Shown here: piece after piece, positions 3,767 through 63,827 of the stretch
How positions within the stretch are numbered: the stretch's first letter is position 1
Layout of the letters: each line of letters starts with the position of its first letter
Source: Eubacteriales bacterium
GTDB lineage: Bacteria; Bacillota; Clostridia; Oscillospirales; CAG-272
Assembly (NCBI GenBank): GCA_045645205.1
Contig: JAZRIJ010000029.1
Location: forward strand, 1 to 63,827
DNA: 63,827 nucleotides
Reading direction: 5' to 3'
Translations under genes and position numbers: made by a program
Notes under the pieces: generated by a model
Seen by the model: only the letters and a program-made list of their open reading frames with translations
The model's database searches: none
What the model was told of the DNA's origin: nothing

Positions 3767-5128
3767 TTATATCTGAAACAGGCCTTCGCGGATAACTTCA
3801 CAAACTGTGGGGTGTGGGAATACCATCTTGTGAACATCTTCAACACGCATTTCGTTTTCGACCATCATAGCCGCCCCATATATAATTTCGGATGCATAAG
3901 AGCCTATCATGTGAACACCAAGAATAGTGCGGTGTTTTTTGTCGATAATGATCTTAACAATACCGTCTCCGCCTTCGTTTTCAGCAATGTATCTGCCCGA
4001 GTAACGAAGGGTGAAGCTTTCTGTTTTTGTTTCAAGGCCCTTAGCTTTAACTGTTTCCGAAGTTTCGCCTACACTTGCAACCTCTGGGTTTGTATAGATA
4101 ACAGCAGGAATAGCGTTGTAGTTCATCTTATCTTTCTTGCCAAGAATATTATTTATGCAAACCTCGCCTTCACGGTATGCGGTATGAGCAAGCATGGATT
4201 TGCCGTTAATATCGCCTGCAGCCCAAACACCCGGAACGTTTGTCTTTCCGTCTTCACCTGTAACGATAGCGCCTCTTTCTGTAAGAACGCCAATGTTTTC
4301 AAGTCCGAGACCTACAGAGGAGGGTCTTCTTCCGATAGAAACGAGAACGCAGTCAGCCTTAACTGTCTTTGCCTCGCCTGCAAGCTCATAGTTTACGCAG
4401 TCGGTTCCGATAGATGTAACCTTTGCGGAGAGAATAAACTCAACGCCCTTCTTCTTGTAATTTTTAAGAAGAATAGAAGAGATTTCGCTGTCTGTAGGTC
4501 CTGCGATGTGGTCGAGCATTTCGATAACCTTAACGTTTGAACCGATGGAGTTGAAATAGCTTGCCATTTCAAGACCGATAACACCGCCGCCGATTACAAC
4601 AAGTTCTTTTGGAACGGTTGTCATATCAAGTATCTCGCGGTTTGTCTTTCCAAAACCGGAAGAAACAGCCTCTCTGAGACCGGGAATAGGAGGAACAGCA
4701 GCTTCAGAGCCTGCGCAGATAAGCAACTGTTTGCCTGTGTATTCTTTATCGCCGGCTTTTACAACAAAACCGCCAGCAGTCTTTTCTTTTATTTCTGCAA
4801 GTTCTTTTACAACCTCAACGCCCGCTCTTTTCATTGTGCCTTCAATACCTGAAACGAGAGTTTTTACGACCTTGCCCTTTCTTTCAATAACTTTTGCGTG
4901 GTCAATTGAGGCACCGTCAAACTTAACGCCGTAAGCTTCGCTGTGCTTTGCATAGTCATAGATCTTTGCTGAGTAAAGCAGTGTCTTTGTGGGAATACAA
5001 CCCTCGTTGAGACAAACTCCGCCCATCGCGCGTTTTTCAATAACAAGAGTCTTAAGACCGCCGTGTGCGGCTTTTTCGGCTGCATTATAACCTGCCGGTC
5101 CGCCGCCGATTACAATAAGATCGTACAT
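3767..5128 (-). CDS. lpdA: Dihydrolipoyl dehydrogenase (E3)
   Basis: GGGPAG, GGVCLNEGCIP redox disulfide, HPTxxE. Confidence 0.93.
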   Translation of the reverse strand: MYDLIVIGGGPAGYNAAEKAAHGGLKTLVIEKRAMGGVCLNEGCIPTKTLLYSAKIYDYAKHSEAYGVKFDGASIDHAKVIERKGKVVKTLVSGIEGTMKRAGVEVVKELAEIKEKTAGGFVVKAGDKEYTGKQLLICAGSEAAVPPIPGLREAVSSGFGKTNREILDMTTVPKELVVIGGGVIGLEMASYFNSIGSNVKVIEMLDHIAGPTDSEISSILLKNYKKKGVEFILSAKVTSIGTDCVNYELAGEAKTVKADCVLVSIGRRPSSVGLGLENIGVLTERGAIVTGEDGKTNVPGVWAAGDINGKSMLAHTAYREGEVCINNILGKKDKMNYNAIPAVIYTNPEVASVGETSETVKAKGLETKTESFTLRYSGRYIAENEGGDGIVKIIIDKKHRTILGVHMIGSYASEIIYGAAMMVENEMRVEDVHKMVFPHPTVCEVIREGLFQI

Positions 5129-7669: not shown

Positions 7670-9685
7670 TTAAGTTGCGTTATTTTGAGTTGCCGGAGGT
7701 TCAGTTTGTAGCGGTTCTGTTGCCGGAGGCTCGGTCCGAGGAGGATCGGTCACCTCAGGTTCGGGACCGTTGCTTACATAAATCGTAATCATAGTGCCCT
7801 CTTCCGAGTCTTTACTGGGAGTTACTTGAACATTGTATGCAGGTCCTGTCTTAAATACATAACCTGCGCGCTGGGTTGAATTATATTCTGTAATTGTTGT
7901 ATAACGAAGATTGAGTCTGTCAAGATCTGCTCTTACAGAGTCTATATGCTGTCCGACATAGTTTGGAAGAGCTATTGTTTTGGGACCTTCTGTTTCAGCA
8001 GGACCTTTGCTTGCTATAATGTGAATATCGGTACCTGTTGGGAGCTCAATGCCCTCTTCGCTGCTTTGTTCGAGTATCTCACCCTTAGGTTTGTTGGAAT
8101 CCTGATAGGTAATGTTGCCTAAACTCAGCTGATTGCTTTCGAGCAGTTTTTTTGCGTCATCAAGAGTTTTGCCTATAAGATTGGGCATCTTTACCATTTT
8201 AAGATCCGGTCCGTCGCTAACGTACAGTTTAATAACCGTATCCTTGGATACTATTGTTCCCGGTGCAGGCTCGGTTCTTATAACCATACCTTCGGAAATA
8301 AGATCGTGCTTTTCAAATTTAACGGTTGTTTTGAGACCTATCTTTTCTGCCTTTATCTCTACAGTTCTGTAATCTGTCATAGTATAATTGGGCAGTTCAA
8401 GAGTCATAGCGTTTTCGTCTCTGCATATTGTCAGTGTAAGATCGCACTTCTGCTTACCTTCAATAATAATTCTTTTTGAATCCTTAACAGGTTTTTGTTT
8501 TACTATTGTGTAAGGCGCATAATCCTTGTTGTCTGTATAGTCGATAATAACATTGTAGCCTTGCGCTTCAAGCTCTTCTTTCATTTCTTCGCTATAAATC
8601 TGATTAATGAAGTCGGGGACAATAATCTCTTTTCTTGTTGAAGGATCATCCTTAAATAAATTTGTTATAATAGAGATAAGAGAAATCGCCAATATAATAA
8701 TAAAAGCAATACTTATTCCGGCAATAACCGGAAGCATAGAACTGTTCTGTCTCTTTCCCTTAGGTTTTTTTCTTTTCAACTTTGCCAAAACTCCTTTTAT
8801 GCCTGTGGGGGCAGGAATGGCTGACATTTTCTTGTTGCTGAATATATACGTGGGATTGGCAAGCATTTGTTCAACGTGTTTGCGCATAACAGTAGCTGTC
8901 TGGAAACGTTTATCTGCATTTTTTTCCATAGCGGTCAGAATTATCTGTTCAACACCCACAGCAAGTCTCGGAACTTTTTCTCTTGGATTCTTCGGTTGTT
9001 CATTTATCTGTTTCAATGCAACGGATACGGGAGTGTCTGCCTTAAAGGGCAAATCGCCTGTCAACATCTCATACATAACTATACCCAACGAATAAAGGTC
9101 GCTTCTGGGATCAATGGTCTTTCCGCTTGCCTGCTCGGGACTGATGTAATAAACAGTTCCGATAGCCTTGTCCGCAACGGTGACGGTTTCCGCATTTGGA
9201 AGCTTGGCTATGCCAAAGTCGGTAACTTTTATTACACCGTTTTTCAAAAGCATAATATTCTGAGGTTTAATATCACGGTGGATAATTCCCTTAGAATGCG
9301 CGTGTTCAAGAGCTTTCAGTATTTGCTGTGTGTACACGAGAGCTTCACGGGTGCTTAATGCGCCCTTTATTGTAATGTAATTCTTCAGTGTAATACCCTC
9401 GACTCTTTCCATAACAATGTATTTTAGATCGCCCTTTATGGAAATATCGTAAATTGATACAATGTTAGGGTGTGATAACATAGATATAGCTTTGGATTCA
9501 TTTATAAATCTTTTAACTGATTGAGGGTCTTTCGCAATATCATCCTTGAGTACCTTCAATGCAACAACGCGCTTCATAGCAAGGTCTAATGCTTCAAATA
9601 CAATAGCCATACCGCCCTTGCCAATTACTTTTACTATTTTATATCTATTGTCGAGAACATTCCCGATATATTTTTCAAGTTCCAT
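7670..9685 (-). CDS. prkC: PASTA-domain Ser/Thr kinase (PrkC/Stk1)
   Basis: GKGGMA, HRDIKPQN, DFG, one TM helix, several PASTA repeats. Confidence 0.93.
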   Translation of the reverse strand: MELEKYIGNVLDNRYKIVKVIGKGGMAIVFEALDLAMKRVVALKVLKDDIAKDPQSVKRFINESKAISMLSHPNIVSIYDISIKGDLKYIVMERVEGITLKNYITIKGALSTREALVYTQQILKALEHAHSKGIIHRDIKPQNIMLLKNGVIKVTDFGIAKLPNAETVTVADKAIGTVYYISPEQASGKTIDPRSDLYSLGIVMYEMLTGDLPFKADTPVSVALKQINEQPKNPREKVPRLAVGVEQIILTAMEKNADKRFQTATVMRKHVEQMLANPTYIFSNKKMSAIPAPTGIKGVLAKLKRKKPKGKRQNSSMLPVIAGISIAFIIILAISLISIITNLFKDDPSTRKEIIVPDFINQIYSEEMKEELEAQGYNVIIDYTDNKDYAPYTIVKQKPVKDSKRIIIEGKQKCDLTLTICRDENAMTLELPNYTMTDYRTVEIKAEKIGLKTTVKFEKHDLISEGMVIRTEPAPGTIVSKDTVIKLYVSDGPDLKMVKMPNLIGKTLDDAKKLLESNQLSLGNITYQDSNKPKGEILEQSSEEGIELPTGTDIHIIASKGPAETEGPKTIALPNYVGQHIDSVRADLDRLNLRYTTITEYNSTQRAGYVFKTGPAYNVQVTPSKDSEEGTMITIYVSNGPEPEVTDPPRTEPPATEPLQTEPPATQNNAT

Positions 9686-56849: not shown

Positions 56850-58211
56850 TTATTTTTCAAGAATATCCGACAGGTCTTGCAGTCTGTGGTTTGCCGCAAT
56901 TACAACGACCTTGTCGCCGTTAAGGATCATATCATCACCGGCTGGAATTATTGTTTTTCTGTCTCGGATAATTCCACCGATAAGTATATTTTTACGTATT
57001 TTCATATCCTTAAGAGGAGTACCGATAACTTTTGAATCGTCTCTTACATTGAATTCCAAGGCTTCGGCTTTGTCATCCATAAGCTTGTACAGTAACTCAA
57101 CGCTGCTACCCATTGAATTTTGCAAAGCCCGAGCATAACTGATTATAAGATCGGAAACGATTTTTTTGGGAGAAACTATTGAGTCAAGACCCAGTTTTTC
57201 TGCCATGCCTGCAAGCTCATCGCGGTTAACTTTTGCTATAACCTTTGGAACATTTTGGGATAATGCAAAGATTGAAATGAGCATATTTTCTTCGTCCATA
57301 CCTGTTAGAGATACGAGCGCATCTGTATTTAAAAGGCCTTCTTCAACGAGTAACTCTTGTTGTGCACCGTCGCCGTGTATTACAGTAGTTTTAGGGAGTA
57401 GTTCGCATAGCATTTCGCATGTTTTTTCATCTTGTTCAATAATTTTCACCGATGTTCCAATATTAGTAAGCATTTCGGCGAGGTAGTAGGATACTCGTCC
57501 GCCGCCCAAGAGTATAACGTCTTTAGCTTGCTTTTGCATTTGCCCTGAGCCTTTAAAAAGTTTTTGCAATTCTGTGTGAGAGGCTGTTATGCCGATTTTA
57601 TCACCGCTGTTGAGGACAAAGTTACCATTTGGGATAAAAACATCTTCACCGCGTTGAATACAGCATACAAGAACTTTTGCATTAAATTTTGAGCGTATGT
57701 CGCTGAGTTTGACTCCGTCAAGAAAAGAATCTTCTTTGAGACGAATCTCAATTATTTCAAGATAACGGCGAGAAAAGGTTTCAATCTTGACTGCTGATGG
57801 AAATTTAAGTATATTAAAAAGTTCATGAGCGGCAAGTCTTTCGGGGTTAATAGCCATAGAAAGCTCGAGCTGCTGCCTCATGAAGCTTAGGCTTTTGTCG
57901 TTGTATTCGGGATTTCTAATACGCGCGATTGTGTATTTTGCACCCATTTTACGTGCGAGGAAACAGCTTAACATATTTAATTCGTCCGAGCCTGCAACGG
58001 CAACAAAAAGGTCTGTTTCCGATACGCCTGCTTCTTCAAGTATGTCGCTGTCAACACCGTTTCCGCATATGCCCATTACATCATATATGTTTGTAAGCTC
58101 GGAAATTACCGAAGTATTGTTATCAATGGCAACAATATCATGTCCTTCGGAAACAAGACTGGATATCAAAGTTGTTCCAATTTTGCCACAACCTGCAATA
58201 ATTATCTTCAT
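56850..58211 (-). CDS. trkA: Trk potassium uptake regulatory subunit
   Basis: Two RCK/Rossmann repeats (GCGKIG, GGGRV). Confidence 0.93.
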   Translation of the reverse strand: MKIIIAGCGKIGTTLISSLVSEGHDIVAIDNNTSVISELTNIYDVMGICGNGVDSDILEEAGVSETDLFVAVAGSDELNMLSCFLARKMGAKYTIARIRNPEYNDKSLSFMRQQLELSMAINPERLAAHELFNILKFPSAVKIETFSRRYLEIIEIRLKEDSFLDGVKLSDIRSKFNAKVLVCCIQRGEDVFIPNGNFVLNSGDKIGITASHTELQKLFKGSGQMQKQAKDVILLGGGRVSYYLAEMLTNIGTSVKIIEQDEKTCEMLCELLPKTTVIHGDGAQQELLVEEGLLNTDALVSLTGMDEENMLISIFALSQNVPKVIAKVNRDELAGMAEKLGLDSIVSPKKIVSDLIISYARALQNSMGSSVELLYKLMDDKAEALEFNVRDDSKVIGTPLKDMKIRKNILIGGIIRDRKTIIPAGDDMILNGDKVVVIAANHRLQDLSDILEK

Positions 58212-58419
58212 ATAAAATTCCTTTACAATTTGTTATTAAATAAAACGGTATAATAGTATTGACATAATGTATATATTAATATTGTAACATTTATTTTTAA
58301 AATTTGCAATAGAGTTAAGATTAAATATTAGCGTATATTATAAAACTTAAAGGTTTTTTGAGATCTTTGGGGTTATAAATTCAATTAATCTAAATTAATA
58401 ACTTTTTTATTATTTGCTA

Positions 58420-58448
58420 TTGCAAAAAAAATAATATTGTGATATAAT
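58420..58448 (+). promoter_or_regulatory. sigma-A promoter upstream of the tRNA-Ser half array
   Basis: TTGCAA-N17-TATAAT with an extended TG. Confidence 0.75.
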
Positions 58449-58467
58449 CCATTTGCTATAAAAATTT

Positions 58468-58509
58468 GGAGAGGTATCGAAGTGGTCATAACGGGGCTGA
58501 CTCGAAATC
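58468..58509 (+). repeat. Orphan tRNA-Ser 5' half, copy 1
   Basis: 41 of 42 nt identical to the 5' end of the intact tRNA (G instead of C at position 6); ends just past the anticodon loop. Confidence 0.92.
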
Positions 58510-58659
58510 TTCTTCGCCAAACGGAAGCCGAAACGCTGAAAACCCTTTAACCATGCGGGTTTCGGGCATTTCCTTGTTTCTGAAACACTATGAGTTCTAA
58601 CGAGAATTCTAATACAACTAAATATTGCGTTAATACTCCTTTGGGAGTTTAACATACAC

Positions 58660-58699
58660 GGAGACGTATCGAAGTGGTCATAACGGGGCTGACTCGAAA
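58660..58699 (+). repeat. Orphan tRNA-Ser 5' half, copy 2
   Basis: 40 of 40 nt identical to the intact tRNA through the anticodon loop (CTCGAAA). Confidence 0.92.
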
Positions 58700-58843
58700 C
58701 ATAGTCGGGTCTGTCACGCATTACTCTTTGAAACTCCGCTGTTCATCGGCGTTTACGCTGTGTGCATTTGCACTTTTGAAAACTCGCATCTCGCAGTTTT
58801 CTCGCAATTTGGTATCAAGGCGCAAGCCTATACAATTTTATAT

Positions 58844-58932
58844 GGAGACGTATCGAAGTGGTCATAACGGGGCTGACTCGAAATCAGTTAGGGAGCAATC
58901 CCCCGCGAGTTCGAATCTCGCCGTCTCCGCCA
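58844..58932 (+). tRNA. tRNA-Ser(CGA)
   Basis: 89 nt; GGAGACG/CGTCTCC acceptor stem, CT-CGA-AA loop, long variable arm, G discriminator, CCA. Confidence 0.95.
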
Positions 58933-58962
58933 AAGGCGGTACAAGTTATCTTGTACCGCCTT
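58933..58962 (+). terminator. Perfect 13-bp hairpin after tRNA-Ser
   Basis: AAGGCGGTACAAG-TTAT-CTTGTACCGCCTT. Confidence 0.7.
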
Positions 58963-59111
58963 AATCTTTGGTTATTCTCTGCGCTCTGTTGGTACTGATC
59001 CCTGGTACTTATGTTGAATTGGCGTCCCTCATTTTCGCATTTATGCAGACTATATTAGAGGTGAACAGTCAAATGAATACTGAGTTTCTGACGGTGGGAA
59101 AAGGCGTATCT

Positions 59112-59212
59112 GGAGTGACCCAACGAAAGCAGTTAGTATCATATCAGAGAACACCACAGAGCAAAGATGTAGCACTTACGCCGAGAAGGTTCGATACCTT
59201 CACACTCCACCA
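59112..59212 (+). ncRNA. Candidate tRNA-like RNA (acceptor stem, T-arm, CCA; non-canonical middle)
   Basis: GAAGG-TTCGATA-CCTTC-ACACTCC-A-CCA; GGAGTG at 59112 pairs with CACTCC; hairpin follows. Confidence 0.4.
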
Positions 59213-59213
59213 T

Positions 59214-59247
59214 AACTCCTTGAAGGTTTTATCCTTCAAGGAGTTTT
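59214..59247. terminator. Hairpin between the tRNA-like RNA and the integrase stop
   Basis: AACTCCTTGAAGG/CCTTCAAGGAGTT 13-bp stem. Confidence 0.7.
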
Positions 59248-59252
59248 CTCTT

Positions 59253-60440
59253 TTATCCCAAGGCACTTCCTATCGCCATTGCACTTGCTTTCTTACTCTC
59301 GCTATCAATGTGGCTGTAAATATTTGCCGTTGTTCCCATATCACTATGACCAAGCCAGTCCTGAATCATTTTCATCGGCACACCGTTTGCGAGAAGTAGC
59401 GATGCACAACTGTGTCGCAGATCGTGAAAGCGGACAGGTTTTAATCCTTTTTCTTTCAACACGACTTTGAAATGATCGGTCACGTAGTTGGGTTTTATAA
59501 TCTCACCGATTGCATCAACGCAGATGTAGTCGGTGTATTTTTTGCAGTAACCTCGGCGCATCACTCGCATCATTTCATCTTGCTTTTGTTTTTCAGCAAG
59601 GAGAACTTCTTCCACCTGAGGTATCAGAGGCAGTGTGCGGTAGGAGGATTTTGTTTTCATAACGTCCATTCCCACAACACCTTTTTCGTTTTGCACTATT
59701 TTGTGATTAACACTGACTGTCTTGTTTTCAAAGTCCACCGCCGACCATTTAAGACCAAGCACTTCACTTCTCCTGAGTCCGTAATAAGCTGCAAGGAATA
59801 TGACGATGTGGATGGGATCGTTCACCGTTTTATCGAGAAGTTCTTTCAACTCGGTGGCGTTATAATATTTACCGATGTACTGTTGCGCCTTCGGTCTGTC
59901 GGCTTGCTCAACGGGATTGCTCGGTATGATTCTACGCTTGACCGCCGACTTGAAAGCCAGATGCAATAGCGCGTGATGGCGTTGAGCAGTCGTGCCTTTG
60001 AGTCCGTCATTACGGATACGGATATAGTAATCGTTAATTTCATCACCAGTTATATCCTTCACCTTAAGGTCACCGCACTCACGGAAGAACGGAATCATTC
60101 TCGACTCAATCATCAGCTTGTAGCCTTCGTAGGTGGTTTCCGATACGTTTACCTTGTGTGACTCCAACCACTCGGGAAGGTAGTCAGCCACCTGCATATG
60201 CGCCACACGACTGCGCTCGCGATCAGCGTGGGACATATTCTCACGCTTGTATAAGTCGTCGGTGTTATAGTGATCAAGGAGTTGGCGGAGGCGGTGTTCC
60301 GCCTCACGCTTGTTACCTTTGTTTGCATCAAGATTCAAACCTTGCCATTTCTCTTTTCGCTTGCCGTCGGTATCATACAGATTGATGACCGCATACCACT
60401 TTTTGTTTTTCTCGGTCAGGTGTCCTGTGATTCGTTTCAT
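59253..60440 (-). CDS. int: Tyrosine recombinase/integrase
   Basis: R (GLRRSE), K (KTKSS), HDLRH, LGH and catalytic Y (NIYSH); N-terminal arm-binding-like region; start set at the ATG at 60440 after AAGGAG. Confidence 0.93.
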   Translation of the reverse strand: MKRITGHLTEKNKKWYAVINLYDTDGKRKEKWQGLNLDANKGNKREAEHRLRQLLDHYNTDDLYKRENMSHADRERSRVAHMQVADYLPEWLESHKVNVSETTYEGYKLMIESRMIPFFRECGDLKVKDITGDEINDYYIRIRNDGLKGTTAQRHHALLHLAFKSAVKRRIIPSNPVEQADRPKAQQYIGKYYNATELKELLDKTVNDPIHIVIFLAAYYGLRRSEVLGLKWSAVDFENKTVSVNHKIVQNEKGVVGMDVMKTKSSYRTLPLIPQVEEVLLAEKQKQDEMMRVMRRGYCKKYTDYICVDAIGEIIKPNYVTDHFKVVLKEKGLKPVRFHDLRHSCASLLLANGVPMKMIQDWLGHSDMGTTANIYSHIDSESKKASAMAIGSALG

Positions 60441-60444
60441 TTGC

Positions 60445-60759
60445 TCACGCTCCTTTCTTTTGAAGTTGTCCTTTGTCATCTCGGGCAACACCAACACTAT
60501 CACAACCATCTTCATAAGTCCAGAGATTATTCGGGACTGTCGGGGACGGAGTCTGATAGTTTCCTGCATTGGTCAGAAACTCAACCAAACAAACCTTCGG
60601 TACAATAATTTTCTTGCCCTGCTTGATGCTGCCAATCCTACCTTCTTTGATAAGACCATAGACGGTATTCTTCCCGAACTGCAACAGCCTTACCACATCC
60701 GGCACGGTCAACACATCGGGTTCATTCTTAAACATTTTGAAATAATATCTGTAACTCAT
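60445..60759 (-). CDS. Excisionase-like HTH protein
   Basis: PDVLTVPDVVRLLQFGKNTVYGLIKEGRI; directly upstream of int. Confidence 0.82.
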   Translation of the reverse strand: MSYRYYFKMFKNEPDVLTVPDVVRLLQFGKNTVYGLIKEGRIGSIKQGKKIIVPKVCLVEFLTNAGNYQTPSPTVPNNLWTYEDGCDSVGVARDDKGQLQKKGA

Positions 60760-61157
60760 GAAGGTTCTCCTTTCATTTTTTCGATATTTCGAGTATTAAA
60801 TGGGTGGTGGAATAATTTCCAAAGGTAGCACATTTGCGGCGCTAATCGCAAAAAGGTAGCACACCTGTAATTTAACTTGTGAATAGCCCACAAAGCCCCT
60901 AACGGTCGGCATTGCCGTCCGATGTGAGTCGGAAAGGTGGCGTTTTGCGGCACCTTTCCTTTCTCCTGCTTTCTTTTCATCCAAGTGTGTTACCACTACG
61001 GCAGAAAAGAAGGAAATAAGGCAGAGATTGCATTTCCACCAGCTTATTGCGCTTTATATTAGCTGCTTATATATTTTTTATTCTGTTGTAAGATTACTGG
61101 GTTTTGTTCTATGGGTCTTGTTATTGATAAGAAGTTTCGAACCTACCCAACTGAGAT

Positions 61158-61472
61158 TTATTCGCTATTGATTTTTGTTAGATCGACTACATGATAGAGG
61201 TTGGATGTTTTACTGCCATCGAACCGAGTTCGTGTTATCTTTCTAATCAATCCGATATCAATTAAATTGTTGAGAGCTATGTCTACCGTCTTTTTGTCAA
61301 TCTGACATTCTTCCGAAATCAATCGCCTTGACGGAAAGCAAGTATGGTTTGCAATATCAGCGTGTCGTAGCAGGCAACAGTACACTGTAAAATCTCGCGG
61401 CTTGAGTTGGAGTTCAAAAATTCTGTTTGCCACTACAAAGAAATCTCTCCTTGATGGTTGGGTATTTATCAT
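61158..61472 (-). CDS. Winged-helix (HTH_36-like) protein of replication-initiator type
   Basis: VYCCLLRHAD, CFPSRRLI, SNLY; ATG at 61472 after AAGGAG. Confidence 0.75.
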   Translation of the reverse strand: MINTQPSRRDFFVVANRIFELQLKPRDFTVYCCLLRHADIANHTCFPSRRLISEECQIDKKTVDIALNNLIDIGLIRKITRTRFDGSKTSNLYHVVDLTKINSE

Positions 61473-62030
61473 ATAAATTCTCCTTTGCAAAAAATTAAGA
61501 CCACTCACAATGAAACGATTAGTTCCTTGTAAGTGGTCTTTCTGTTAGTATTTAATTTTGGATATAGTACTCCCTTGGCATTGCATTAGAATCACATAAA
61601 AATTCTTTGTTCTTTCTCGTTGCGCATAAGGGTCATAAGGGAAGTGATGTTAATAAGGTCTGTGCTAAAATTAATTTGCTGTGTTAAACGAAGGATGTTT
61701 GGTTTCTCGCAACATCTATCTCTTGGATTGTACCGTGAGAACGAGAGAATCATATGTAACAAATAGGGCTTCAATTCCATCCCTGTCCGTCCACATCTCA
61801 TATGCCTATGAGCTGCCATGCAGAAGTATCATCATACCAATCGTGGGTCATCGCAAACCGAAAAAATGTTGTCGCTATTTCGGTTCGGCACATACGCTTA
61901 TCGCTCGCTCACTTGTTTGAGGTCATGGCGGCGTTGTCCATCTTTGCTTTCCTGTTAAGGTCACGACGGCTTTGTACCCGACATCCTTTTTTATTCAATT
62001 GTAAGCACCATTTTCCATTGGTACAACCTC

Positions 62031-62059
62031 ATTATAACAACCGAAAATCACCTTGTCAA
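62031..62059 (-). promoter_or_regulatory. Consensus sigma-A promoter pointing toward HTH-xis-int
   Basis: TTGACA-N17-TATAAT with an extended TG on the minus strand. Confidence 0.75.
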
Positions 62060-62303
62060 CACCCCGAAAACCGCATGGCATCAACGTTTTCAGCAAAAAA
62101 TCGTCCATTATTTCCATACAGTGTTTTTGTTAATTTTGCGTAGTTTTTAGTAATAAATATTCTACGAAAAAATTTTTCAAAAAATTTTTTGATCTACTAT
62201 AATTCTGGCGTTTTCGGGCGTTATTTTGCTCCTTGTTGCGATTAAAAAGAAAAAGCGAGTGTTTACTCGCCCGAGCAAACGCCCGCCTCAAATCGCCTTG
62301 TTT

Positions 62304-63137
62304 TTATCCACCGTAGTTTTCTTTGCTCATACAGATGCAGACATACCATTTATCGTTTGCTTTGATTACACCTACAGCAATGTATGGATACTTGGAGTTA
62401 CCGACATACGACCAGTGACCTTCGCTGTGATGAAAGCCATCTGCGATACGATCTGACATACTTTCTGCCGTGCCGAACCATTCTCCCATACCTATGGCTT
62501 CACGGCTGTAACCCTGATAGTAACTATCCTCGGCGGTCATACCATAGCGTGTCATATCTACGAACTCGCCGTATTTTAATTCTCTACACACATCACGAAT
62601 ATCTGTGTGGGAAAAGTTGGTCGTGAGCTCATTTGCTCTGTACCGTGCTACATCTGTCAATCCTGGGAGCATTGTTGCTGCCATGTCACCCTGCGCTATT
62701 CGATAGGCATTTATCTTTTCAATTACAAGCCTTTCGATGTCTGAAACATCAACCTCCGGCCACTCTATTCCCGCATATGTTTTTTCCGCTTTTGGAGTTT
62801 CTTCAACCTTTGGCTCGGTATTTTCCGCCGCCGACAGTTTTGCTATTTCAGTAGGCTTTGTTTCCTCTTTCGGCTTTGCCGTTGTTGAAGGCGCTGTGGC
62901 GGTCACAGTCGGTTTGGTTGCCTGATCCACGCTCTCGGTCGGGAGAGGCTCTTTTTCTTTCTCTGTCGGCTCTACCGCCGTTGTAGGCGGTATTGGTTCG
63001 GCAGGTGTTTCAGCTGTTATTATTTTCGATATCGTTGTCGGCGGACTTTCTGTAGGTGGCGGTGCAGAGTTGCCACCGCATCCCACCATACTTACGAGCA
63101 CCCCACAGCAGAGAAGAAGGATTATGATTTTTCTCAT
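62304..63137 (-). CDS. Lipoprotein with a Pro/Thr-rich linker and CAP (SCP)-like domain
   Basis: MVGC lipobox; INAYR, NFSH, SEGHW, IAVG. Confidence 0.72.
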   Translation of the reverse strand: MRKIIILLLCCGVLVSMVGCGGNSAPPPTESPPTTISKIITAETPAEPIPPTTAVEPTEKEKEPLPTESVDQATKPTVTATAPSTTAKPKEETKPTEIAKLSAAENTEPKVEETPKAEKTYAGIEWPEVDVSDIERLVIEKINAYRIAQGDMAATMLPGLTDVARYRANELTTNFSHTDIRDVCRELKYGEFVDMTRYGMTAEDSYYQGYSREAIGMGEWFGTAESMSDRIADGFHHSEGHWSYVGNSKYPYIAVGVIKANDKWYVCICMSKENYGG

Positions 63138-63418
63138 ATATCCTCGACCTCCTCCAAGCCCTGCATCACTTCCACCATAATGCGCGTTGCAAGGATAAAC
63201 CCCGAACCGAATGCCTCACGCTCGGTGATGCATGACAGTTCGCTTGTGCAATCCTTGAACTTTTCAAAGATTTCCTTTTGTTTCTCTGTGAGTCCCGAAT
63301 TGAGTTCTTCCTCATTCTTGCATATCAGCTTTACGAGTTTGTCTACTCTCGTTCCTCGTTTAATATACCTTTCGTGTGGACTGATGTTGCCATAGTATAA
63401 ATCTTCAAGTGTTGTCAT
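63134..63418 (-). CDS. DUF6809-like small protein
   Basis: LEDLYYGNISPHE...GFILATRIMVEV (recalled family pattern). Confidence 0.65.
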   Translation of the reverse strand: MTTLEDLYYGNISPHERYIKRGTRVDKLVKLICKNEEELNSGLTEKQKEIFEKFKDCTSELSCITEREAFGSGFILATRIMVEVMQGLEEVEDI

Positions 63419-63597
63419 TTCTGCACCTCCCCATAAGAGAAGAGCGACTCTACACCATTCGGTGCAAAACCGCTCTTTTTGATTGTATTTTCTTTTCGTG
63501 CCATATCAGCACCTCCTTTGCAGTACAAACATATACCACAAAGATTTTGCGAAGTCCAGAGAAAATAACCGCAAATTACAATATAGTCAAACCACAA

Positions 63598-63827
63598 TCA
63601 ACTAACGGCTTTTTCATACTCACAATTTTTCATTCTCATCAAAGTGTTCATTGTATTTGTTGAAATATCTGAACGATCTTTTAATAAGGTTAATAAAATT
63701 ACAATATTATCATCTGCACGAGTATAATATATACGATAATTTGGATTAGACACTCTATATTCGAAAAGATTATCGTTGATTTTTAACACACGACTGGTGT
63801 TTCGCCCATGGAAGTGCCCGAGTTTAT
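63598..63827 (-). CDS. RelE/HigB (Gp49-like) toxin family protein, 5'-partial
   Basis: LFEYRV...YRIYY...IVILL; frame is open to the window edge. Confidence 0.55.
   Translation of the reverse strand, partial: KLGHFHGRNTSRVLKINDNLFEYRVSNPNYRIYYTRADDNIVILLTLLKDRSDISTNTMNTLMRMKNCEYEKAVS

What the first reader, a model, noticed from the sequence alone, without database searches (positions are those of the whole stretch)
58468..58932. Array of tRNA-Ser 5' halves with unrelated but co-structured ~150-bp spacers beside an integrase
Seen: the first 40-42 nt of tRNA-Ser(CGA) occur at 58468, 58660 and 58844 (periods 192 and 184 bp); only the last copy continues to a full tRNA. Both orphans stop at the anticodon loop. 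The spacers (150 and 144 bp) differ in sequence but share a layout: imperfect palindrome about 31 bp after the break, short direct repeats (TTCTAA x2 at 58595 and 58607; TCTCGCA x2 at 58789 and 58800), then a tetraloop hairpin 11-14 nt before the next tRNA start. A sigma-A promoter precedes copy 1 and I see no strong terminator before the intact tRNA. Established: the anticodon loop is a classic tyrosine-integrase crossover site, but islands usually duplicate the 3' part of the tRNA. Inference: these are gene-less att-only mini-elements of about 190 bp, or collapsed scars of successive islands. They may act as integrase decoys, as a record of invasions, or as a source of tRNA-half/spacer RNAs.
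Basis: partly seen in the sequence, partly recalled or inferred. Interest (0 to 1): 0.85.

Follow-up and report, generated by a model that had tools for sequence, protein, structure and literature searches.

The report
Stacked junctions of nested tRNA-carrying islands
The repeated tRNA-Ser front halves are the leftover halves of tRNA genes split by mobile islands that insert into the anticodon loop and bring their own complete replacement tRNA, one island nested inside the previous island's tRNA.

Summary
Three copies of the first 40-42 nt of tRNA-Ser(CGA) lie 192 and 184 bp apart, and only the last copy is a gene.

The mini-element reading is not supported. Each "spacer" is the left attachment arm of a full-size integrative element. 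That element continues rightwards through its own complete tRNA-Ser(CGA) gene into convergent int and xis genes.

Relatives show both ends. The element is joined to the host only through the anticodon loop: CTCGAAA for the window's int-bearing element, 10-11 bp for others. The split host gene's 5' half lies about 145 bp upstream of the element tRNA. Its 3' half lies 10-66 kb downstream, with a complementary acceptor strand.

New elements insert into the previous element's tRNA, so 5' halves stack up (10 nested cases in 79 loci). The window's right end is missing because the contig ends.

The closest known mechanism is tRNA-dependent lysogeny of actinobacteriophages (PMC10865867). Here it occurs in small, apparently non-phage elements of gut Clostridia, with recursive nesting. 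I rate it a new variant of a known kind.

The parts
58420..58448 (+). Promoter-like site (TTGCAA-17-TATAAT, TG-extended) of the resident, now split, tRNA-Ser(CGA) gene
   Evidence: 10 of 12 consensus positions. A similar promoter stands before the single tRNA of the same-genus relative G009 in the same trkA context. Consensus match only.
58468..58509 (+). Orphan 5' half no. 1, left half of the resident tRNA-Ser(CGA). Acceptor strand GGAGAGG, anticodon loop CTCGAAA at 58501-58507. This is the attL of the outer element (B type)
   Evidence: Its acceptor strand does not pair with the 3' strand CGTCTCC of the intact gene. The junction ...CTCGAAATC|T(T/C)CTTCG is shared with G013, G020, G024 and G005.
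58510..58659 (+). Spacer 1, left (P') arm of element family B. It holds GTTCTAAC/ATTCTAAT repeats (58594-58613), a conserved GAAAACCC..GGGTTTCGGG motif and a covarying hairpin (about 58629-58653) just before the B tRNA start
   Evidence: Copy 1 + spacer 1 + copy 2 is 82-85% identical in four other genomes of the family. Spacer 1 alone is 74-79% identical there and in L049 and L055. The B-type right end in G020:C38 has the same TTCTA repeats and an orphan 3' half. Covariation.
58660..58699 (+). Orphan 5' half no. 2, left half of element B's own tRNA-Ser(CGA). Acceptor GGAGACG, loop at 58693-58699. This is the attL of the inner element (A type)
   Evidence: The junction GACTCGAAA|CATAGTCGGG is identical in L068, L054, G421, G422, G423 and G424.
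58700..58843 (+). Spacer 2, left (P') arm of element A. It holds ACTCGCA/TCTCGCA/TCTCGCA repeats (58782-58806) and a promoter-like TTGGTA-16-TACAAT (58809-58836) for the element's tRNA
   Evidence: 72-94% identical next to close relatives of this int. TCTCGCA occurs 3-5 times in the right arm of complete A elements.
58844..58932 (+). Complete tRNA-Ser(CGA) carried by element A. It is the only tRNA-Ser(CGA) found in the assembled genome
   Evidence: The acceptor strands GGAGACG/CGTCTCC pair. It is 100% identical to the tRNA of a genome of another family (G037).
58933..59213 (+). About 280-bp extra segment between the tRNA and the int terminator, starting with a terminator-like hairpin at 58933-58962. 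It is absent from most relatives of element A
   Evidence: 98.7% match only in L057. Contigs of two public runs join 58933 to 59215.
59214..59245 (.). Terminator-like hairpin between the tRNA side and the int stop, conserved in relatives
   Evidence: The 38-nt stretch is 97-100% identical in about 30 loci.
59253..60569 (-). Tyrosine integrase of element A, converging on the tRNA
   Evidence: Pfam Phage_integrase 3.6e-25 and SAM-like domains. PHROG 1 integrase 2.5e-72. 90-97% identical copies occur in about 35 public MAG contigs of different species.
60445..60759 (-). Xis-like HTH_17 protein (recombination directionality factor candidate)
   Evidence: HTH_17 3e-11. Homologs lie upstream of int in relatives.
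60756..63827 (-). Further genes of element A, cut by the contig end: a 74-aa ORF, an HTH_36 replication-initiator-like protein (61158-61508), a 277-aa protein, DUF6809 (63134-63418). The right end is not in the window
   Evidence: The window is the whole contig.

Best explanation
The array is a stack of left junctions (attL) made by two successive, nested insertions of integrative elements that use a 'bring your own tRNA' strategy.

Each element has this order from left to right: attP core, about 145 bp of left arm, complete tRNA-Ser(CGA) with its own promoter, convergent int, xis, cargo, right arm. Its tyrosine integrase recombines a 7-11-bp core, the anticodon loop CTCGAAA and up to 4 flanking bases, with the anticodon loop of a resident tRNA-Ser(CGA) gene.

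Nothing beyond the core is shared, so the resident gene is split and not rebuilt. Its 5' half stays about 145 bp upstream of the element's tRNA. Its 3' half is pushed to the far end of the element. The element's own tRNA takes over.

The element tRNA is now the only complete attB, so the next element lands inside it.

In the window, copy 1 is the resident gene's 5' half. Spacer 1 plus copy 2 is the left arm and tRNA 5' half of an older element, B. Spacer 2, the intact tRNA, int and xis belong to the newest element, A.

Shown by sequence comparison: the crossover position, the element-borne tRNA, the arm repeats at both ends, nesting, and mobility into different host tRNAs.

Inferred: that Int binds the repeats, that the element tRNA complements the loss, and that excision restores the host gene. 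It is also inferred that older units can become fixed scars when the element body is lost, for instance by recombination between the two directly repeated 3' halves.
For: (1) Relatives with both ends.
- L034 (G066): orphan 5' half GGAGGGT, element tRNA GGAGAGG/CCTCTCC, int, and about 17.9 kb on an orphan 3' half ending ACCCTCC, which pairs with the orphan 5' half.
- L040 (G098): the same layout over about 17 kb.
- Complete copies of the window's own element A (int 93-94% identical): L068, about 10.4 kb. G424: orphan 5' GGAAGCG and orphan 3' CGCTTCC, about 24.6 kb. G421: GCAGACG and CGTCTGC, about 23.5 kb.
- In all three A copies the left junction reads ...GACTCGAAA|CATAGTCGGG and the right junction reads ...TTTG|CTCGAAATCAG. 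Only CTCGAAA is common.
- Finished genome of Oscillibacter valericigenes Sjm18-20: four orphan 5' parts, the tRNA, int at 67% identity, and 66.4 kb on one orphan 3' half (CCGCTCC) that pairs with the fourth orphan (GGAGCGG).

(2) Mobility. A 21-nt right-arm-plus-loop word found 8 metagenome contigs. All 8 are right junctions, joined to at least 5 different tRNA-Ser 3' halves and different flanks. In G423 element A sits in a quite different tRNA-Ser 5' half.

(3) Arm repeats. TCTCGCA occurs 3-5 times in the right arm of A and 2-3 times in spacer 2. TTCTA-type repeats occur in the B right arm of G020:C38 and in spacer 1. TTCTTGC (L034) and TTCTCTCC (L040) occur at both ends of those elements.

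(4) Nesting. In G425 the right arm of a third element abuts the 3' half of A's tRNA. Then come int A, the A body, the A right arm and a second 3' half. 10 of 79 int loci show a foreign arm, then a 3' half, then int.

(5) Association with int. Of 15 array loci with downstream sequence visible, 12 have an int homolog (24-67% identical, plus the window itself) converging on the tRNA; 3 do not. None of 8 single-copy loci has a full int. Of 37 int loci with at least 250 nt visible upstream, 28 have at least one orphan. Most periods are 170-202 bp.

(6) Census. 217 of 401 genomes of the order hold the 31-nt 5'-half word with at most 2 mismatches. By my hand count of that table about 45 hold 2-4 copies.

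(7) In the window, the acceptor strand of copy 1 does not pair with the intact gene's 3' strand, while copies 2 and 3 do.
Against: The window itself shows only the left side. The contig ends 4.9 kb into element A.

No orphan 3' half exists anywhere in the 84.6%-complete assembly. A strict search and a loose search both found none. Nesting in this genome therefore rests on relatives.

5' orphans outnumber 3' orphans. O. valericigenes has four against one, with none in the next 52 kb. G302, G063 and G052:C9 show none in 20-40 kb. 3 of 15 arrays have no int. So many units are dead scars, and the unit copy 1 + spacer 1 here may be one.

No excised circle (attP) was found among the 8 metagenome hits. 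Nothing was found in viral contigs.

TCTCGCA is not enriched in the window as a whole.

Binding of Int to the repeats and the need for the element tRNA are untested. tRNA-Ser(UGA) is present and might read UCG.
Confidence: 0.88

Rival explanations
1. Gene-less, att-only mini-elements of about 190 bp. Each unit would be an autonomous attP-sized element mobilised in trans by the neighbouring Int and Xis, perhaps acting as an integrase decoy.
For: The units are attP-sized and carry arm-type repeats. Arrays without any int next to them exist in 3 of 15 loci.
Against: Each spacer is contiguous with a full-size element to its right in many genomes. Both borders of a unit are attL-type, with no right arm beside the second loop, so there is no attL x attR pair (read; the rule itself is the lambda paradigm, from knowledge). 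No unit was seen apart from a tRNA on its right.
Confidence: 0.03
2. Collapsed scars of islands that once lay between the repeats. These would be 5'-restoring islands whose attP carried the promoter and 5' half, later deleted down to about 150 bp.
For: Islands with 5' tDNA fragments are on record: 159 of 3919 in Islander (PMC4383910, passages read). Spacers end in promoter-like sequence.
Against: The uniform 140-160-bp spacer length is the native distance from core to tRNA in intact elements. No relative shows genes between an orphan 5' half and the next tRNA start. The 3' halves that pair with the orphans lie to the right of the intact tRNA.
Confidence: 0.03
3. The orphan halves and spacers are, also or instead, a functional RNA array. 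This could be tRNA-half or leader RNAs made from the resident promoter, or a structured leader needed for the element tRNA.
For: The resident promoter is intact and no terminator-like site precedes the tRNA. Spacer 1 folds better than shuffles (z -3.6). The hairpin 6-11 nt before the tRNA start keeps pairing through changes on both sides at 5 positions in 7 sequences.
Against: Spacer 2 is not unusually structured (z -0.74). No Rfam family reaches gathering score. The conserved repeats recur at the elements' right ends, where they cannot be part of such a transcript. RNA contigs laid here covered only tRNA-like parts and show no transcript (not evidence either way).
Confidence: 0.05
4. Assembly artefact: a metagenome assembler threaded strain variants through a shared 42-nt word.
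For: The genome is a MAG of 89 contigs. Many tRNA-Ser loci sit at contig ends. Logan contigs break at the repeats.
Against: The same order of units occurs in other assemblies (L055, L049). A finished isolate genome has five copies.
Confidence: 0.01

Closest known systems
tRNA-dependent lysogeny of actinobacteriophages (Fionnbharth, LeBron, Gaia and others; Guerrero-Bustamante and Hatfull, mBio 2024, PMC10865867; abstract, sections 10 and 11 and passages read)
   Same: A tyrosine integrase with arm-type sites. attB lies inside a host tRNA gene. The common core is only 8-17 bp, so no tRNA is rebuilt. [quoted passage not shown]
   Different: Here the hosts are gut Clostridia (record titles name Acutalibacteraceae, Oscillospiraceae, Oscillibacter and others). 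The target is tRNA-Ser(CGA). The core is the 7-nt anticodon loop itself. The tRNA sits at a fixed distance of about 145 bp between core and int. The complete 10.4-kb relative has defence-type cargo and no virion genes. The element tRNA is itself re-targeted, giving nested elements and arrays of orphan 5' halves. I found no mention of nesting or tandem integration in the passages and sections read. Need for the tRNA is not tested here.
Lactobacillus johnsonii prophage Lj965
   Same: The Discussion of PMC10865867 cites it as a prophage outside Actinobacteria whose integration fails to rebuild a tRNA and which encodes a cognate tRNA.
   Different: I know it here only through that citation; the original papers were not read. 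It is a prophage, and no arrays are mentioned in the citing text.
Classical anticodon-loop tRNA islands and their tandem arrays (Islander model, PMC4383910, passages read)
   Same: The integrase gene lies beside a tDNA. The crossover is centred on the anticodon loop (2083 of 3919 Islander islands are of that class). A displaced 3' fragment marks the far end. Repeated use of one tDNA is known.
   Different: In classical islands attP carries the 3' (rarely 5') part of the tDNA and the working gene is a host/element hybrid. Arrays are tandem, with 3' fragments only. Here the whole gene is element-borne, a 5' fragment is also left, and later elements sit inside earlier ones. Islander's 2-kb minimum and configuration filters would discard the 5'-half units.
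Tycheposons of Prochlorococcus (bioRxiv 10.1101/2020.12.28.424599, passages read)
   Same: tRNA-targeting tyrosine recombinase elements. Repeated integration at one tRNA pushes older elements further in. Partial tRNAs and degraded remnants are left behind.
   Different: The passages read describe flanking partial tRNAs as the att motif next to a full-length host tRNA. They do not describe an element-borne complete replacement gene or nesting within it.
CIMEs, cis-mobilisable att-flanked remnants of ICEs (recalled from knowledge; no call)
   Same: Int-less DNA bounded by att sites beside an ICE or IME.
   Different: CIMEs keep an attL and an attR and are kilobases long. The units here are bounded by two attL-type junctions and are simply the ends of elements that continue to the right.

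Membership tests
tRNA-dependent lysogeny type integration (PMC10865867) | Tyrosine integrase with putative arm-type sites flanking the attP core | tested here: met
   Pfam and PHROG integrase. Repeats TCTCGCA (A type), TTCTA-type (B type), TTCTTGC and TTCTCTCC occur in both arms. Binding is not shown.
tRNA-dependent lysogeny type integration (PMC10865867) | attB overlaps a host tRNA gene | tested here: met
   Orphan 5' and 3' halves with pairing acceptor strands flank the elements. 8 of 8 metagenome right junctions are joined to tRNA-Ser 3' halves.
tRNA-dependent lysogeny type integration (PMC10865867) | Short common core, so no functional tRNA is rebuilt at attL or attR | tested here: met
   The core is CTCGAAA (7 bp) for A and GACTCGAAAT(C) (10-11 bp) for others. 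ARAGORN calls neither orphan of the window a tRNA.
tRNA-dependent lysogeny type integration (PMC10865867) | [quoted passage not shown] | tested here: met
   tRNA-Ser(cga) lies within 1.5 kb of the int stop in 45 of 79 int loci and in the window. It travels with spacer 2 into different hosts.
tRNA-dependent lysogeny type integration (PMC10865867) | Element tRNA is required for survival of integrants | not testable with these tools
   It is the only tRNA-Ser(cga) in the assembled genome. A tRNA-Ser(tga) is also present, and the assembly is 84.6% complete.
tRNA-dependent lysogeny type integration (PMC10865867) | The element is a temperate phage (lysogeny) | tested here: not met
   No virion or lysis genes were found among the 10 largest ORFs of the 10.4-kb L068 copy or in the window's 4.6 kb. 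No relative was found in viral contigs. Larger relatives, such as the 66-kb one in O. valericigenes, were not annotated.
Classical tRNA-restoring genomic island (Islander model, PMC4383910) | attP holds a tDNA fragment, so the working gene after integration is a host/element hybrid | tested here: not met
   The right arm next to the loop has no tRNA 5' part, and the left arm next to the loop has no 3' part.
Classical tRNA-restoring genomic island (Islander model, PMC4383910) | A displaced tDNA fragment marks the distal end | tested here: inconclusive
   Met in relatives. In the window's genome none was found because the contig ends inside the element.
Gene-less att-flanked mini-element (CIME-like) | Bounded by one attL and one attR that can recombine | tested here: not met
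   Both borders of each unit read 5' half, loop, left arm. Right-arm sequence occurs only 10-66 kb to the right in relatives.
Gene-less att-flanked mini-element (CIME-like) | Excises as a circle when Int and Xis are supplied | not testable with these tools
   No read-level data: only Logan contigs were available and none spans a unit.
Described structured RNA family (Rfam 15) | Match at gathering score to a curated model | tested here: not met
   Only the tRNA passes. The other 6 matches in 58200-59300 are below gathering.

The most novel reading that the evidence does not exclude
The element-borne tRNA works as a portable landing pad. Every invader destroys the current tRNA-Ser(CGA) gene and supplies the attB for the next invader. 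Islands at this locus therefore grow as nested dolls, and the 5' halves form a dated stack, oldest on the left.

Loss of an element body would leave the host permanently dependent on a tRNA gene and promoter of mobile-element origin. Such loss could occur, for example, by recombination between the directly repeated 3' halves. This would be an anchoring or addiction effect.

In a sizeable share of genomes of this order the working tRNA-Ser(CGA) would then be a captured element gene. About 45 of the 217 genomes with the word hold it in multiple copies (hand count).
Probability: 0.45. Interest if true: 0.7.

Novelty: new variant of a known kind. Interest (0 to 1): 0.55.

Why it matters
It extends 'integrate into a tRNA, do not repair it, bring your own' from actinobacteriophages to small defence-carrying integrative elements that are widespread in gut Clostridia.

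It adds a consequence not described in the texts I read. The replacement tRNA becomes the next target, so elements nest and leave ordered stacks of orphan 5' halves.

There are two practical effects. Island finders that rely on a tDNA plus a displaced fragment would place the left border about 190 bp too far to the right. They would also treat an element gene as the host's, and discard the 5'-half units; Islander uses a 2-kb minimum and a configuration filter.

The stacks give a readable order of invasions at one locus. They also suggest that an essential-type gene can be replaced by mobile-element copies.

O. valericigenes Sjm18-20, a cultured strain with five copies, would make the mechanism testable.

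Tried and rejected
- Orphan 3' halves in the window's own genome. A strict search (at most 10 mismatches of 55) and a loose search (loop plus T arm) found none. The nine-base loop words elsewhere are in unrelated sequence.
- Right chromosomal flank. Downstream genes of same-genus single-copy loci hit only a 30%-identical duplicated gene at the start of contig C48, and no tRNA remnant is there. This did not identify the far border.
- Viral contigs. The integrase found no relative: 12 pattern matches, none confirmed.
- Public runs. 21 of the 24 runs listed hold part of the stretch, and none holds half of its words or more (best share 0.36). All are kept as Logan contigs.
- Laying X1, X2, X5 and X15 gave short pieces that break at the repeats. 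No piece spans a unit. RNA contigs covered tRNA-like parts with other flanks. This says nothing for or against continuity or expression. It did show the form lacking the 280-bp post-tRNA segment.
- Arm repeats within the window alone. Spacer 2 and the post-tRNA region share only AGTTTTCTC, and TCTCGCA is at chance level window-wide. The arm-site reading rests on relatives.
- Excised circle. The 8 metagenome hits to the right-arm word are all integrated right junctions.
- Immunity by altered anticodon stems. Some element tRNAs have GCGCA/TGCGT or CCGCA/TGCGG stems, but such genes also occur as orphans (G302, O. valericigenes). A general block on re-targeting is therefore not supported.
- Coding potential. 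ORFs of 103 and 96 aa overlap the array, but spacer-1 relatives differ by 1-nt indels, so I did not pursue them.
Supplementary files of the papers were not consulted. Supplementary figures of PMC10865867 on arm sites may bear on the comparison.
- No literature search was aimed at nested integration into an element-borne tRNA as such. Searches returned nothing on Clostridia or nesting in their listings. That is not proof that it is unpublished.
Full report
**What is in the window**

The repeat finder reports one family of three 46-nt copies at 58464, 58656 and 58840, spaced 192 and 184 bp. ARAGORN calls only 58844-58932 a gene, tRNA-Ser(cga). Rfam agrees at 52.1 bits and matches nothing else above its thresholds in 58200-59300.

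Copy 1 matches the gene for 42 nt, up to ...CTCGAAATC. Copy 2 matches for 40 nt, up to ...CTCGAAA. CTCGAAA is the 7-nt anticodon loop.

The spacers are 150 and 144 bp and are unrelated in sequence.
- TTCTAA twice and TCTCGCA twice.
- A hairpin shortly before each next copy.
- A promoter-like site before copy 1.
- No terminator-like site before 58933.

To the left lie trkH and trkA. To the right lie a tyrosine integrase (59253-60569, minus strand) that converges on the tRNA, an HTH_17 Xis-like gene, an HTH_36 replication-initiator-like gene and DUF6809.

The window is a whole contig of an 84.6%-complete, 89-contig genome. Whatever lies right of 63827 is not available.

**First lead from relatives**

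In 41 related genomes, the stretch copy 1 + spacer 1 + copy 2 is 82-85% identical in four genomes of the family, three of them in other genera. That is higher than the neighbouring trkA gene, which is 66-76% identical.

Several genomes have two to four or more copies, with periods of 179-193 bp and other spacers.

Wherever sequence downstream of the intact tRNA could be read, an integrase homolog usually sat in the same convergent position. This held in 12 of 15 array loci, counting the window; G024, G063 and G052:C9 lack it. None of 8 single-copy loci has a full integrase there. One (G010) has a 65-residue fragment.

An element to the right of an intact tRNA cannot leave 5' halves on its left under the classical scheme. 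The scheme therefore had to be different.

**Both ends**

In G066 (locus L034) the parts are these:
- The orphan 5' half has acceptor strand GGAGGGT.
- The intact tRNA 140 bp further on has GGAGAGG/CCTCTCC.
- An integrase follows.
- About 17.9 kb downstream there is an orphan 3' half beginning at the anticodon loop and ending ACCCTCC, the exact partner of the orphan 5' half.

G098 (L040) is built the same way over about 17 kb.

So a resident tRNA-Ser(CGA) was split in its anticodon loop by an element that carries its own complete tRNA-Ser(CGA) just inside its left end.

**The window's own element**

A scan of species-representative genomes with the window's integrase returned 79 loci. About 35 of them have 90-97% identical integrases, in MAGs labelled as different species of Acutalibacteraceae, Oscillospiraceae, Candidatus Fimenecus and others.

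Spacer 2 travels with this integrase. Sequences 72-94% identical to spacer 2 lie in 27 stored loci other than the window's own copies, which stand for 23 distinct genomic places. All but one of them (L102, a 24-nt match) are next to a close relative of this integrase. The host flanks and host promoters differ wherever I read them.

Complete copies:
- L068: about 10.4 kb.
- G424: about 24.6 kb, orphan 5' GGAAGCG and orphan 3' CGCTTCC.
- G421: about 23.5 kb, GCAGACG and CGTCTGC.

In each, the left junction is ...GACTCGAAA|CATAGTCGGG, exactly as at 58699/58700 in the window. The right junction is ...TTTG|CTCGAAATCAG. The only letters common to both arms and the target are CTCGAAA.

The right arm carries TCTCGCA three to five times within about 140 bp of the crossover.

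A 21-nt word spanning the right arm and loop found 8 metagenome contigs. All are right junctions. They are joined to at least five different tRNA-Ser 3' halves with different downstream flanks.

In G423 the element sits in a clearly different tRNA-Ser 5' half. This is the signature of site-specific insertion into the anticodon loop of many hosts.

**Spacer 1**

Its relatives are followed by a tRNA and then a different integrase lineage. G013 has an integrase 35% identical to the window's.

In G020 the array sits at a contig end. Another contig end (C38) holds the matching right end:
- GTTCTAT, ATTCTAAT, TTTCTAAA and an inverted ATTAGAAC.
- A conserved CCCTTTAA...GGTTC motif.
- Then CCACTT|GACTCGAAATCAGTT..., a 3' half ending CCTCTCC, the partner of G020's orphan GGAGAGG.

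So spacer 1 is the left arm of a second element family (B) with an 11-bp core.

**Nesting**

In G425 the integrase of element A is preceded not by a whole tRNA but by its 3' half. That half is abutted on the left by the right arm of a third element, with GTTCTCTCC three times. 20.9 kb further on, A's own right arm abuts a second 3' half.

Ten of the 79 integrase loci show the same pattern, a foreign arm, then a 3' half, then int. From reading the 130 nt shown for each, several different foreign arms are involved.

This is the mirror image of the window's left side. Each newcomer lands in the only complete attB, the tRNA brought by its predecessor.

Read this way, the window contains, from left to right:
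- The resident promoter and 5' half (copy 1).
- The left arm and tRNA 5' half of element B (spacer 1, copy 2).
- The left arm, tRNA, int and xis of element A.

The same B-then-A order occurs in L055. L049 has it with one more unit in front.

The nearest relative of the window's spacer 2 (94%, L054) sits directly behind a host promoter and half. The B-plus-A combination therefore probably arose by separate hits rather than by joint transfer.

**How common**

The 31-nt 5'-half word (at most 2 mismatches) occurs in 217 of 401 genomes sampled from the order. By my hand count of that table about 45 hold two to four copies.

Among the integrase loci, 45 of 79 have a tRNA-Ser(cga) within 1.5 kb of the int stop. 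Of the 37 with at least 250 nt visible upstream, 28 have at least one recognisable orphan. Most periods are 170-202 bp; the exceptions are 89, 339 and 395 bp.

The uniform 'spacer' length is thus the built-in distance from core to tRNA in these elements.

**What does not fit neatly**

5' orphans outnumber 3' orphans. The finished genome of O. valericigenes Sjm18-20 has four orphan 5' parts before the tRNA. It has only one orphan 3' half, 66.4 kb downstream, which pairs with the fourth orphan. There is none in the next 52 kb.

G302, G063 and G052:C9 show none within 20-40 kb. Three arrays have no integrase.

I infer that element bodies are often lost while the left arm and the now indispensable tRNA stay. 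Recombination between the element tRNA's 3' half and the directly repeated distal 3' half would do exactly this; in L068 the two are identical over 55 nt, from the loop to the CCA end. This is inference.

The unit copy 1 + spacer 1 in the window may be such a scar or the left end of a live outer element. The assembly cannot tell, because no 3' half is found in it.

No excised circle was found.

**RNA reading**

Spacer 1 folds better than shuffles (z -3.6) and spacer 2 does not (z -0.74).

In seven spacer-1 relatives, the 10-bp hairpin that ends 6 nt before the tRNA start keeps pairing through changes on both sides at five positions. That hairpin is probably functional, in tRNA expression or as a DNA structure, and remains unexplained.

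The repeats and the GAAAAGCCTT...GGGTTTCGG-like motif recur in right arms, outside any such transcript. The array as such is therefore explained at the DNA level.

**Comparison with what is known**

The mechanism matches tRNA-dependent lysogeny, described in 2024 for mycobacteriophage Fionnbharth and other actinobacteriophages. Its features are a tyrosine integrase, an attB in a host tRNA, an 8-17-bp core, no rebuilt tRNA, and a phage tRNA of the same isotype that is required for lysogeny (PMC10865867; abstract, sections 10 and 11 and passages). Its authors expected it elsewhere and cite prophage Lj965.

Four of its defining features are met here by sequence. The requirement for the tRNA cannot be tested here. 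The element examined in full is not a phage: its cargo is an HsdM methylase, AAA_13, AbiTii, AAA_25 and HTH regulators.

It differs from the classical island model, in which attP holds a tDNA fragment and only one fragment is displaced (PMC4383910).

In the texts I read and the four searches I ran I did not find three things: the re-targeting of the element-borne tRNA, the resulting nested elements, and the ordered stacks of 5' halves. I did not search specifically for them, so this is not a claim that they are unpublished.

**Verdict**

The feature is a new variant of a known kind, widespread in gut Clostridia. It has practical consequences for island mapping, and a cultured strain is available for testing.

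Noticed in passing
window 58933-59213: An extra segment of about 280 bp lies between the element tRNA and the int terminator. It starts with a terminator-like hairpin at 58933-58962. It is present at 98.7% identity only in L057. It is absent from most relatives of element A and from contigs of two public runs, which join 58933 to 59215.
   Followed up: partly
window about 58629-58653 and 58817-58829; alignment A1 columns 121-145: A hairpin ending 6-14 nt before each element tRNA start. In the spacer-1 family five of its pairs change on both sides and stay paired (ACTCC/GGAGT, CTCGG/CCGAG, CTCGC/GCGAG). Its role is unexplained: leader processing, insulation from read-through, or a DNA structure.
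   Followed up: partly
window 58538-58567; L034, L040, L138, L139 right arms: A motif of the type GAAAAGCCTT(T/G)A...GCGGGTTTCGG occurs about 30-60 nt right of the core in left arms and about 60-100 nt left of the core in right arms. It is found in elements whose arm repeats and integrases differ. It may be a site for a shared host or accessory factor.
   Followed up: no
L040 (G098), L036 (G302), L042 (G273), L087/L124 (O. valericigenes): Some element tRNA-Ser(CGA) genes have a changed anticodon stem (GCGCA/TGCGT or CCGCA/TGCGG instead of GCTGA/TCAGT). Such genes also occur as split orphans, so the change does not generally protect against re-targeting.
   Followed up: partly
L010/L028 (G005) 284-361; L018 (G036); L087 rc 9173-9261: Very short units with a period of 78-89 bp and a spacer of about 35-47 nt (e.g. 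...TCGAAATCATGTTG...), shared between genomes. Either an element family has its tRNA much closer to the core, or these are truncated arms.
   Followed up: no
L135 (G421) rc 150-290; L011, L012, L018, L068 upstream of the tRNA: A conserved block of about 110 nt (…GCGAAGCGAACAGCGAGC…TTTCGGGCACCGCAA…) appears inserted in the D-loop region of an orphan 5' half: GCAGACGTATCGAAGTGG, then the block, then ACATAACGGGGC. It recurs in several genera. Its nature is unknown.
   Followed up: no
L068 1656-9770 (complete 10.4-kb relative of the window's element): The cargo looks like defence: an HsdM type I methylase next to an AAA_13 protein, AbiTii, DUF2513, DUF6809, an AAA_25 ATPase, and HTH_3 and RHH regulators. 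AAA_13 beside HsdM recalls the prr (anticodon nuclease) arrangement; that resemblance is from memory and was not tested.
   Followed up: partly
L025 (G024) 4754-4930: The last roughly 20 nt of the tRNA and its downstream terminator are duplicated about 140 bp further on, in an array locus without an integrase. This looks like the remnant of an almost fully deleted element.
   Followed up: no
L012 (G010) 338-514: A 65-residue integrase C-terminal fragment (35% identical) converges on a single-copy tRNA-Ser(CGA) in a same-genus relative. This is a decayed element at the same locus.
   Followed up: no
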